IMG/VR virus record: IMGVR_UViG_3300026488_000019
Coordinates: 1 to 64,000 of that record
Length of the DNA: 64,000 nucleotides
Strand: one strand, 5' to 3'
DNA from: a virus
The notes under the pieces were generated by a model. That model worked only from the letters and a program-made list of their open reading frames with translations. It was not told the DNA's origin and did not search any database. Shown piece by piece: positions 24,464 to 25,008 of this stretch. Position numbers and translations under genes: made by a program. Each line of letters opens with the position of its first letter. The first letter of the stretch is position 1.

Positions 24464-25008
24464 CTCTTAACCCAAGTAGCTGTAGAAGTTTTAACATAGA
24501 AGTCTCCTGCTACATCCCATACAACATCTTTAACTGATTTAATGTAAATAGTTCCATCCTTCTCAATCCTAATTTTTGAACCAGATGAATGATGGAACTC
24601 TACATACTCCTTAGCTTTATTTATCTTAAACCAATTATTCTTCTTATCCCTAAACCCATAAGTTTCAGGGTAGTCTTCATCAAATAAATGTTGATGGGTA
24701 GGAGTTGACTGGATTTCCCCTATGTAGTAAGGGTTATAAATAGAATCTTCAAACTTAACTATTACATAAGAACCTTTCTCTGGAACTGAAAAGTTAGAGG
24801 AATCAGACCTAGCTCCTAACAGGTTTGGTCTAATAGGATGAACAAAAGGTAAGTGTTTAGCTGGGATACCTTTCCATAAAGGTTTTATCATTACCTTTAT
24901 CCTCCCCAACTGGAGAGGGTCTGCGTTTCAGATAACCTCGCCTACCCACAACTTACTTGTTATGTCAAATTTTTCATCTTTCAAAGTATCAGCTAATGCT
25001 ATTATCAT
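24460..25008 (-). CDS. Baseplate spike gp5/gpV-like protein (182 aa) with in-frame UGA at codon 27
   Basis: ATG 25008 with GGAGG SD; reads ...LWVGEVI*NADPLQLGRIKV... into track ORF 24460..24909, restoring the OB-fold start motif; TGA at 24930-24928. Confidence 0.85.
24901..24918 (-). promoter_or_regulatory. SECIS-like hairpin downstream of spike UGA
   Basis: CCUCUCC-AGUU-GGGGAGG at +10..+27 after UGA, loop +17..+20. Confidence 0.6.

What the first reader, a model, noticed from the sequence alone, without database searches (positions are those of the whole stretch)
24895..25008. Spike UGA sits inside the conserved OB-fold start motif
Seen: TGA 24930-24928 interrupts G-E-V-I-*-N-A-D-P-L-Q-L-G-R-I-K-V. 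Established: gp5/gpV-like spikes begin with a GxVxxxxDPxxLGRxxV strand motif, so the 149-aa track ORF would lack its first strand. Inference: decoding of this UGA is obligatory for a viable spike. The position is usually polar (D/E/S) rather than Cys, so a Sec here would be structural or regulatory, not catalytic, which is atypical for selenoproteins.
Basis: partly seen in the sequence, partly recalled or inferred. Interest (0 to 1): 0.75.

Follow-up and report, generated by a model that had tools for sequence, protein, structure and literature searches.

The report
Phage spike gene read through UGA
The tail-spike gene of an uncultured hydrothermal-vent phage has a UGA "stop" inside its most conserved opening motif, followed by an RNA hairpin like the ones vent bacteria use to insert selenocysteine, so the ribosome most likely reads through it on purpose.

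Summary
Observation confirmed. On the minus strand, ATG 25008 (GGAGG 7 nt upstream) opens a 182-codon spike gene whose codon 27 is TGA (24930-24928), between G-E-V-I and N-A-D-P-L-Q-L-G-R-I-K-V.

- 148 of 149 homologues carry this whole segment and none starts at LGR. The aligned column is D84/S18/N9/E8, with no Cys.
- An AlphaFold model (pLDDT 92) puts strands 1 and 2 at residues 20-27 and 37-40. The 149/143-aa ORFs would lose them.
- The UGA is not an isolated accident. The adjacent hub gene has a second in-frame TGA (25750-25748).
- Both TGAs are followed at the same spacing by G+C-rich hairpins with AGUU/GUUC loops built from rare codons. Relatives at 43-57% protein identity have sense codons and no hairpin.
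- Five vent bacterial genomes that share the phage's TnpB gene (~76-85% nt) all have SelB and Sec-containing SelD. Eight of their 12 examined Sec-UGAs carry [A/G]GU[C/U] loops at nt 21-22; the phage loops start at nt 20.

Best reading (0.6): SelB/SECIS-type selenocysteine insertion at a substitution-tolerant, non-Cys site, probably regulatory. Rivals are Sec-independent readthrough, reinitiation and a pseudogene.

This scan had already noted the cassette on this genome, and candidate phage selenoproteins on other DNA.

The parts
24460..25008 (-). Full spike gene (182 codons + stop), gp5/VgrG/gpV-type central spike with an N-terminal OB fold
25016..25020 (-). Shine-Dalgarno GGAGG, 7 nt before ATG 25008-25006
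   Evidence: spacing falls within the genome's usual 5-8 nt
24928..24930 (-). In-frame UGA, codon 27, at the end of strand 1
24901..24918 (-). Hairpin CCUCUCC-AGUU-GGGGAGG (7 bp including one G.U; loop at nt 20-23 counted from the U of UGA); encodes P-L-Q-L-G-R
   Evidence: no change listed in the X3 relative across 24896-24924
24876..24900 (-). Second, A+U-rich hairpin (8 bp) directly after the first; its loop holds AUG 24891
   Evidence: MFE of the 80-nt stretch; role unknown
24889..24891 (-). In-frame AUG (M40), start of the 143-aa database gene call; GGAGG of the hairpin's 3' arm lies 9 nt upstream (rival: reinitiation)
24907..24909 (-). TTG (L34), start of the 149-aa mechanical ORF
24989..26173 (-). 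Hub gene: two ORFs (141 + 242 aa) in one frame, 394 codons if the TGA is read; aligns full-length with single 369-389-aa genes of relatives
25748..25750 (-). Second in-frame UGA (hub codon 142)
25704..25750 (-). Hub hairpin: 12-bp lower stem that includes the UGA, upper stem UCCCUA-GUUC-UAGGGA (loop at nt 20-23)
   Evidence: (-20.8 kcal/mol, z -4.4, 0 of 200 shuffles)
24173..24463 (-). PAAR-like spike-tip gene; its ATG overlaps the spike's terminal TGA
   Evidence: PF05488, 25.1 bits, just under the 27-bit cut-off

Best explanation
The spike is one 182-codon gene (ATG 25008 to TGA 24460) whose codon 27, UGA, is decoded rather than used as a stop. A SECIS-type hairpin 9 nt downstream most likely directs the decoding: the host's SelB.GTP.Sec-tRNA(Sec) binds the apical loop and inserts selenocysteine. 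The adjacent hub gene carries the same cassette. Shown here: the UGA, the homology on both sides of it, the two similar hairpins built from rare codons, their absence in relatives that have sense codons, and their likeness to the real SECIS elements of Sec-using vent bacteria. Inferred: that SelB reads them, that the residue is Sec, and that the purpose lies in the decoding event. That purpose could be a throttle or gate on the two 3-copy central baseplate proteins that depends on host SelB and selenium. It is less likely to lie in Sec chemistry, because both UGAs sit at substitution-tolerant, non-Cys columns.
For: Homology across the UGA:
- The match starts at residue 1.
- 148 of 149 homologues have the segment that the short ORFs would lack.
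- Strands 1 and 2 are residues 20-27 and 37-40.

Second cassette in the hub:
- The hub has an in-frame UGA, and D151-K152 between that UGA and the next AUG are conserved in relatives.

Hairpin stability and composition:
- The 50-nt windows after the two UGAs rank in the top 3.8% (spike) and top 0.18% (hub) of 24,270 genome windows.
- The stems contain G.U pairs, so they form only on the mRNA strand.
- The arms use rare codons: CTC 9%, TTG 9%, GGG 11%, GTC 3% of their synonymous sets.

Relatives:
- L021, L024 and L025 (56-57% identity for the spike, 42-43% for the hub by tblastn) have D/N and E/E at the two columns, AT-rich codons and no hairpin.
- A roughly 86%-identical contig from another study shows 7 synonymous and 3 non-synonymous codon changes around the site. 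It lists none at 24928-24930 or in 24896-24924.

TGA is otherwise a real stop:
- 17 of 111 ORFs end in TGA, one of which is the hub's internal TGA. These include ATGA overlaps and a TGATAG.
- None of those stops has a SECIS-like hairpin.

Candidate hosts:
- The phage's TnpB gene is ~76-85% nt identical to copies in Desulfurobacteriaceae and other vent MAGs.
- 5 of 5 such genomes have SelB over the cut-off and SelD with one in-frame TGA.
- 8 of their 12 examined Sec-UGAs, including all 6 from the three Desulfurobacteriaceae genomes, have 5-8-bp G+C-rich stems with AGUU, GGUC or GGUCU loops at nt 21-22.

Published descriptions agree:
- A hairpin a few nt after the UGA with an invariant loop G (PMC4607533, passages; PMC1976440, passages).
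Against: - There is no Sec/Cys pairing, which is the usual criterion (PMC1976440). 0 of 149 spike homologues have Cys at the column. The hub column is E, E, E (L024 as L025), Y, Y in relatives.
- The phage loops start at nt 20. That is 1-2 nt closer to the UGA than in all 8 matching host examples.
- No Rfam family matched at E<=10.
- The host is unknown. TnpB sharing is only a lead, and the candidate genomes have 40-46% GC against 34% for the phage. No prophage or spacer-like match was found in them.
- No tRNA is present in the contig, and none of the 20 large ORFs scanned with Pfam belongs to the Sec machinery.
- Conservation of the UGA rests on one short contig. I infer it from a difference table that left 76 rows unshown.
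- The spike hairpin alone is only moderately unusual: z -1.9, and 9 of 200 shuffles fold as well.
- Both hairpin 3' arms are SD-like and are followed by an in-frame AUG.
Confidence: 0.6

Rival explanations
1. Sec-independent programmed readthrough. The hairpins slow termination or otherwise favour a near-cognate tRNA (for example tRNA-Trp) at UGA, giving a low, fixed yield of full-length hub and spike.
For: The evidence for decoding is the same as above. Aromatic residues occur at both columns in homologues: F7 + Y5 of 149 in the spike and Y in two Vibrio-phage hubs. There are no Cys homologues. The loops lie 1-2 nt off the host SECIS position.
Against: I know of no hairpin-stimulated UGA readthrough in bacteria (recalled; not searched specifically). 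The loop sequence AGUU and the geometry match real SECIS elements of vent bacteria. That match would be a coincidence under this reading.
Confidence: 0.17
2. The genes are truly split. Ribosomes terminate at UGA, melt the hairpin that hides an SD-like 3' arm (GGGGAGG or AGGGA), and reinitiate at the in-frame AUG (M40 of the spike, M153 of the hub). This would give an N-terminally truncated spike.
For: Both 3' arms are SD-like and an in-frame AUG follows, 9 nt and 4 nt later. Gene callers chose M40.
Against: The skipped codons 28-39 encode the family's most conserved residues intact: N28, D30, P31, G35, R36, K38 are each 87-96% conserved. Strands 1 and 2 would be lost. 0 of 149 homologues start there. 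The hub's D151-K152 between UGA and AUG are conserved. M40 is Met in only 5 of 149 homologues.
Confidence: 0.1
3. Nonsense mutations in a defective phage or decaying element, or an assembly error; the hairpins are coincidental.
For: There is only one full contig, from a metagenome. Relatives at about 57% identity have sense codons. TGA is one substitution away from the TCA Ser codon, and Ser occurs at this column in 18 of 149 homologues.
Against: Two TGAs in adjacent genes are each followed by similar rare-codon hairpins at the same spacing. The rest of the genome is intact: 111 ORFs cover 95%. A second assembly agrees, and a diverged relative apparently keeps the site with mostly synonymous changes around it.
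Confidence: 0.06
4. Genome-wide or late-phase reassignment of UGA (code 4/25 host, or a suppressor tRNA as in stop-codon-recoded phages).
For: The in-frame UGAs lie in late structural genes.
Against: There are only 2 in-frame TGAs in 111 ORFs. 16 genuine TGA stops exist, including ATGA overlaps and a TGATAG. Trp is written TGG. There are 0 tRNA genes in 85 kb.
Confidence: 0.03

Closest known systems
Bacterial SelB/SECIS selenocysteine insertion (prototype E. coli fdhF, recalled; here selD, peroxiredoxin and fdhA of vent Desulfurobacteriaceae and other MAGs)
   Same: An in-frame UGA is followed within about 10 nt by a 5-8-bp G+C-rich hairpin inside the ORF. The tetraloop carries GU (AGUU also occurs in G005 selD and G002 prx). 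In the hub, the UGA sits in the base of a longer stem.
   Different: The gene is a phage virion protein. No homologue has Cys at the column. The loop lies 1-2 nt nearer the UGA. The feature is young, being absent from relatives at 43-57% protein identity. Two neighbouring genes carry it.
Central spike proteins of contractile injection systems (T4 gp5 N-terminal OB domain, P2 gpV, phage P1 spike, VgrG, Afp8/PVC8; Pfam PF04717, PHROG 430)
   Same: The fold matches (Foldseek probability 1.0 to 7b5h, 7aef, 9qgm, 9vzk, 8gra, 3qr8, 1k28). The GxV..DP..LGR.KV opening motif is present. The neighbours are hub, PAAR, gp25-like and gp6-like genes.
   Different: A stop codon sits at the end of strand 1. 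The protein is short (182 aa) and has no lysozyme domain.
Leaky UGA readthrough in phage Qbeta (A1 protein; recalled, not read here)
   Same: An essential virion protein depends on decoding of a UGA.
   Different: In Qbeta the readthrough adds a C-terminal extension to an abundant coat protein and needs no hairpin. Here termination would leave a useless 26-residue peptide.
Stop-codon-recoded phages (TAG or TGA reassigned in late genes; recalled)
   Same: In-frame stop codons occur in late structural genes.
   Different: Those phages have many recoded stops and often suppressor tRNAs. This one has two, each with its own hairpin, plus 16 normal TGA stops and no tRNA.
Selenoproteins of eukaryotic viruses (mentioned in the abstract of PMC8310308, seen in the listing)
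   Same: A virus relies on the host's Sec machinery to redefine UGA.
   Different: Those use eukaryotic 3'-UTR SECIS elements in redox enzymes with catalytic Sec, not structural proteins of phages.

Membership tests
gp5/gpV/VgrG-type central spike (OB-fold N-domain) | Profile match covering the OB-fold start | tested here: met
   phrog_430 E 2.5e-17 over residues 19-110. phmmer found 1403 hits, 527 of them at E<=1e-10.
gp5/gpV/VgrG-type central spike (OB-fold N-domain) | Pfam PF04717 (Phage_base_V) or PF06714 (Gp5_OB) above the gathering score | tested here: inconclusive
   With X at codon 27, PF04717 scores 15.2 bits (cut-off 23.8) over residues 22-88. The 149-aa ORF gets no hit. The 57%-identical relative P0004 passes at 29.2 bits. 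PF06714 appears only at E 0.042, in P0004.
gp5/gpV/VgrG-type central spike (OB-fold N-domain) | Fold | tested here: met
   AlphaFold model pLDDT 92. Foldseek gave 33 PDB matches at E<=0.001; those listed are spike proteins.
gp5/gpV/VgrG-type central spike (OB-fold N-domain) | Baseplate gene neighbourhood (hub upstream; PAAR, gp25 and gp6 downstream) | tested here: met
   the same order is seen in L021 and L025.
Bacterial selenoprotein gene (SelB/SECIS) | In-frame UGA with homology on both sides | tested here: met
Bacterial selenoprotein gene (SelB/SECIS) | Hairpin directly downstream with G in the apical loop, at SECIS spacing | tested here: met
   Compared with 12 real Sec-UGAs of 5 vent genomes, the phage loop starts at nt 20 against 21-22.
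Bacterial selenoprotein gene (SelB/SECIS) | Cys in homologues at the UGA column (Sec/Cys pairs) | tested here: not met
   0 of 149 homologues. The criterion is as stated in PMC1976440.
Bacterial selenoprotein gene (SelB/SECIS) | UGA and hairpin kept in relatives, with covariation | tested here: inconclusive
   One roughly 86%-identical 139-nt contig piece apparently keeps both, with no covariation possible. Relatives at 56-57% aa identity lack both.
Bacterial selenoprotein gene (SelB/SECIS) | Host with selA, selB, selC and selD | tested here: inconclusive
   The host is not identified. 5 of 5 genomes that share the phage's TnpB have SelB and a Sec-containing SelD. selA and selC were not searched.
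Bacterial selenoprotein gene (SelB/SECIS) | Match to a curated SECIS RNA family | tested here: not met
   cmscan of 24300-26300 at E<=10 returned 6 chance-level hits, none a SECIS family.
Bacterial selenoprotein gene (SelB/SECIS) | Selenium in the protein | not testable with these tools
   Needs 75Se labelling or mass spectrometry.
Stop-codon-reassigned phage | Many in-frame recoded stops; suppressor tRNA | tested here: not met
   2 in-frame TGAs, 16 genuine TGA stops and 0 tRNAs.

The most novel reading that the evidence does not exclude
A vent phage has evolved its own copies of its host's SECIS hairpin, written into the codons of conserved protein motifs. They put selenocysteine at tolerant, normally acidic or polar positions of exactly the two three-copy central baseplate proteins. 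Hub and spike synthesis, and hence infective particle yield, would then be gated by host SelB and selenium supply. A bolder variant is that the two Sec residues give a redox-stable selenium cross-link or anionic selenolate at the hub-spike junction, suited to hot, reducing fluids. I did not test the proximity of the two sites.
Probability: 0.3. Interest if true: 0.88.

Novelty: new variant of a known kind. Interest (0 to 1): 0.8.

Why it matters
Sec insertion is known for cellular redox enzymes and a few eukaryotic viruses. Four full-text searches (listings and abstracts only) found no paper describing a selenoprotein of a virus of bacteria.

If the reading is right, three things follow:
- A UGA-SECIS cassette at a non-Cys site of a structural protein would show that Sec recoding can be recruited for something other than catalysis.
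- It would show how a SECIS can arise de novo inside a conserved coding motif, through two amino-acid changes plus rare synonymous codons.
- It would give a phage gene whose expression depends on a host trace-element pathway.

There is also a practical point. Gene callers truncate both genes (143-aa spike, split hub), so such cases stay hidden in viral catalogues.

Tried and rejected
**Global recoding.** ORF totals under TGA, TAG or TAA as sense codons, together with the stop census, argue against it.

**tRNA or suppressor.** ARAGORN found none in the window or in the 85-kb contig.

**Rfam.** No SECIS or other credible family matched.

**Close relatives by protein words.**
- Only the protein itself was found; no shorter proteins.
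- IMG/VR with the spike gave nothing, and JGI metagenomes gave nothing.
- megablast of 12 kb against GenBank phages gave no match.

**19-nt hairpin pattern.**
- 0 matches in IMG/VR.
- 17 matches in metagenome contigs, none encoding a spike or hub relative by tblastn; most are high-GC and look like chance.

**GTDB genomes.** The gp6-like alignment A4 found no relative.

**Candidate host genomes.**
- No prophage relative of the gp6-like protein was found with this query.
- No spacer-like DNA match appeared; the best E was 0.02, which is chance level.

**Protein atlas.** The PolA query returned viral clusters only and gave no host hint.

**Expression.** No RNA holder was listed.

**Read laying.**
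- All four runs are contigs only.
- X2 and X4 do not cover 24928-24930.
- Whether the near-identical X4 piece (25651-25892) keeps the hub TGA is unknown, because its differences were among the 76 rows not shown.

**Hub-spike complex and distance between the two UGA residues.** Not obtained (see below). The hub was not folded.

**Paper supplements.** They were not opened. The supplementary SECIS tables and figures of PMC4607533 could refine the spacing comparison.

**Recalled, not read here.** bSECISearch's numeric limits, the fdhF G23/U24 numbering, Qbeta A1 and the stop-codon-recoded phages.

Full report
**What is there.**
- The window is the first 64 kb of a single 84,995-bp virus contig. 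It has 34% G+C, no tRNA and no terminal repeat. The run most likely to be its source is labelled a hydrothermal-vent metagenome.
- On the minus strand lies a myovirus-type baseplate block: tape-measure/SLT, a gp53-like gene, hub, spike, PAAR, gp25-like and gp6-like genes.
- Reading from ATG 25008-25006, with GGAGG 7 nt upstream, gives 182 codons. The gene ends at TGA 24462-24460, which overlaps the PAAR start.

**The UGA interrupts a real, conserved protein.**
- PHROG 430 (baseplate hub subunit and tail lysozyme) matches residues 19-110 (E 2.5e-17).
- tblastn finds 51 phage records, the best aligning from residue 1.
- phmmer against 1.84 billion representatives finds 1403 proteins.
- I aligned the best 149. 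Of these, 148 carry the whole G23..V39 segment. The exception, P0138, begins four residues into it. None begins at LGR.
- The column of the UGA reads D84 S18 N9 E8 F7 V5 Y5 Q3 K3 A3 G2 I1 L1, with no Cys or Trp.
- An AlphaFold model with Cys standing in for Sec (66-row alignment, pLDDT 92) places strand 1 at residues 20-27 and strand 2 at 37-40. Foldseek matches central spikes of contractile injection systems, phage P1, P2 gpV, VgrG and T4 gp5.
- The mechanical 149-aa ORF (TTG, L34) and the database's 143-aa call (M40) would therefore lack the first two strands and the family's most conserved residues.
- Pfam PF04717 starts at residue 22. With X at the break it scores below threshold (15.2 bits). 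The 57%-identical relative P0004 passes.

**It is not alone.**
- A census of stops showed that ORFs 25748-26173 and 24989-25717 share a frame and are separated only by TGA 25750-25748 and ten codons.
- The fused 394-residue product aligns end to end with the single 389-aa gene upstream of the spike in two Vibrio phages.
- It also aligns with the single 369-aa hub of three IMG/VR relatives: 42-43% by tblastn and 43-45% in the MAFFT alignments (ORFs).
- D151-K152, which lie between the UGA and the next AUG, are conserved.

**Both UGAs are followed by the same kind of hairpin.**
- Spike: UGA, 9 nt, then CCUCUCC-AGUU-GGGGAGG.
- Hub: a 12-bp lower stem that includes the UGA, then UCCCUA-GUUC-UAGGGA. 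Both loops occupy nt 20-23 counted from the U of UGA.
- The 50-nt windows after the UGAs rank in the top 3.8% (spike) and top 0.18% (hub) of 24,270 windows of this genome.
- The stems contain G.U pairs, so they exist only on the mRNA strand.
- The arms use rare codons: CTC and TTG (9% each of Leu), GGG (11% of Gly) and GTC (3% of Val).
- The relatives L021 and L025 have D or N (spike) and E (hub) at the two columns. They write the same motif with AT-rich codons and have no hairpin. So UGA and hairpin arose together in this lineage. A decaying gene would not be expected to do that.

**Is the UGA real and kept?**
- Logan's own assembly of the probable source run agrees over 2001 bases. It is the same sample, so this excludes an assembler error only.
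- A 565-nt contig from a different study (run X3, depth 11.5) covers 24860-24998 with 19 differences.
- The 12 listed ones change 10 codons, 7 synonymously and 3 not (E24K, S18T, I16A). This is my own codon mapping.
- None is listed at 24928-24930 or anywhere in 24896-24924, which holds the hairpin.
- The table omitted 76 rows. Rows of lower depth than this contig's are shown, however, so its qualifying differences were probably all shown. This is an inference, not a reading of the contig.

**UGA is otherwise a stop here.**
- Of 111 ORFs covering 95% of the genome, 65 end in TAA, 29 in TAG and 17 in TGA. One of the 17 is the hub's internal TGA. The rest include ATGA overlaps and a TGATAG.
- Making TGA a sense codon adds no long frames. 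Genome-wide reassignment is therefore rejected.

**Link to selenocysteine.**
- The contig holds two TnpB genes. One has 77-86% protein-identical copies, ~76-85% at nucleotide level, in vent MAGs. These are titled Desulfurobacteriaceae, Desulfurobacterium, Ca. Desulfofervidaceae, Desulfobacterales and 'Deltaproteobacteria'.
- This makes those lineages candidate hosts or at least gene-exchange partners. It does not identify the host.
- In 5 of 5 such genomes SelB exceeds NCBIfam's cut-off, against 2 of 14 control genomes. In 5 of 5, SelD has one in-frame TGA. FdhA, peroxiredoxin and FlpD homologues with one TGA also occur.
- I extracted 12 of these Sec-UGAs. A thirteenth, L090, gave no stop as I cut it, and I dropped it.
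- Eight of the 12 have a 5-8-bp G+C-rich stem with an AGUU, GGUC or GGUCU loop starting at nt 21-22. These include all six from the three Desulfurobacteriaceae genomes. AGUU, the spike's loop, occurs in G005 selD and G002 prx. The other four have other shapes.
- A descriptor in that spirit was: TGA; a 4-nt loop with GU at loop position 1 or 2, starting at nt 19-23; and a stem of at least 5 bp with at least 3 G-C pairs.
- It hits 3 of 3015 TGA triplets in the phage genome. These are the two in-frame UGAs and one site with no open frame (32849, + strand). Random genomes average 0.67 hits. I set the descriptor after seeing the phage hairpins, so the test is not blind.

**What speaks against Sec.**
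- The standard Sec/Cys criterion fails (0 of 149).
- The phage loops sit 1-2 nt closer to the UGA than the host examples.
- Rfam gives nothing.
- The host is not known. The candidate genomes have 40-46% G+C against 34% for the phage, and they hold no related prophage or spacer-like match.
- The phage itself shows no Sec machinery among the 20 large ORFs scanned.
- Both hairpin 3' arms look like ribosome-binding sites ahead of an in-frame AUG. Termination followed by reinitiation therefore cannot be dismissed on sequence alone.
- Against reinitiation stands the intact, conserved coding of the skipped segment. The family does not use those AUGs: M at column 40 occurs in 5 of 149 homologues.

**Most likely mechanism.**
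- Step 1 (shown): the spike needs residues 1-39, so UGA-27 must be decoded.
- Step 2 (shown): a specific mRNA hairpin accompanies each of the two UGAs and only them.
- Step 3 (inferred, about 0.6): host SelB binds the loop and inserts Sec.
- Step 4 (inferred, weaker): the point is the decoding event, not Sec chemistry. The reasons are:
  - The sites are tolerant: 13 residue types occur at the spike column, and the hub site lies in a variable linker.
  - The sites are normally acidic or polar.
  - The two genes are the three-copy central components, and Sec decoding is generally inefficient (recalled).
  - A Sec selenolate is anionic at neutral pH (recalled), so it may mimic the usual Asp or Glu.

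**Comparison and novelty.**
- The cassette works like a bacterial SECIS. It fails one membership test of a classical selenoprotein (Cys homologues) and leaves others open.
- Four literature searches found no described phage selenoprotein (listings only).
- Earlier notes of this scan describe the same two cassettes on this genome and candidate phage selenoproteins, with Cys pairs, on other DNA. I took these as leads only. The tests reported here are my own.
- I class the finding as a new variant of a known kind, with interest 0.8.

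Noticed in passing
window 24989-26173 (-), UGA 25750-25748, hairpin 25704-25750: The hub gene is annotated as two ORFs but is one frame joined by a UGA plus a very stable hairpin (-20.8 kcal/mol; 0 of 200 shuffles fold as well). It is a sister cassette to the spike's.
   Followed up: yes
genome 72230-73744 (-) and 74472-75890 (+), i.e. L026:9230-10744 and L026:11472-12890 (outside the window): There are two TnpB (IS605 OrfB/Cas12f-like) genes, 32% identical to each other. One is about 85% nt identical to copies in several hydrothermal-vent MAGs of different phyla, which suggests IS traffic between this phage and vent thermophiles.
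   Followed up: partly
window 52860-56300 (-): A ribonucleotide reductase large subunit (1146 aa) has a LAGLIDADG domain inside the barrel (residues 653-739), probably an intein.
   Followed up: no
window 36001-38000: G+C rises locally to 41.5% against about 33% elsewhere, between ORFs 35998-36432, 36448-37371 and 37719-38675. I did not check that.
   Followed up: no
genome 80016-82715 (+), L027:16-2715: A family-A DNA polymerase is fused to an N-terminal uracil-DNA-glycosylase-like domain and a 3'-5' exonuclease. Its nearest atlas clusters are viral.
   Followed up: partly
window about 32849-32882 (+): This is the third hit of the SECIS-like descriptor (8-bp stem, GUUU loop). It has no open frame through its TGA and lies antisense to the gene 32778-33467, so it is probably unrelated.
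   Followed up: no
window 24989-25008: The hub's terminal TGA lies 20 nt inside the spike gene. The relatives have a 2-nt gap (L021) or a 123-nt gap (L025) instead.
   Followed up: partly
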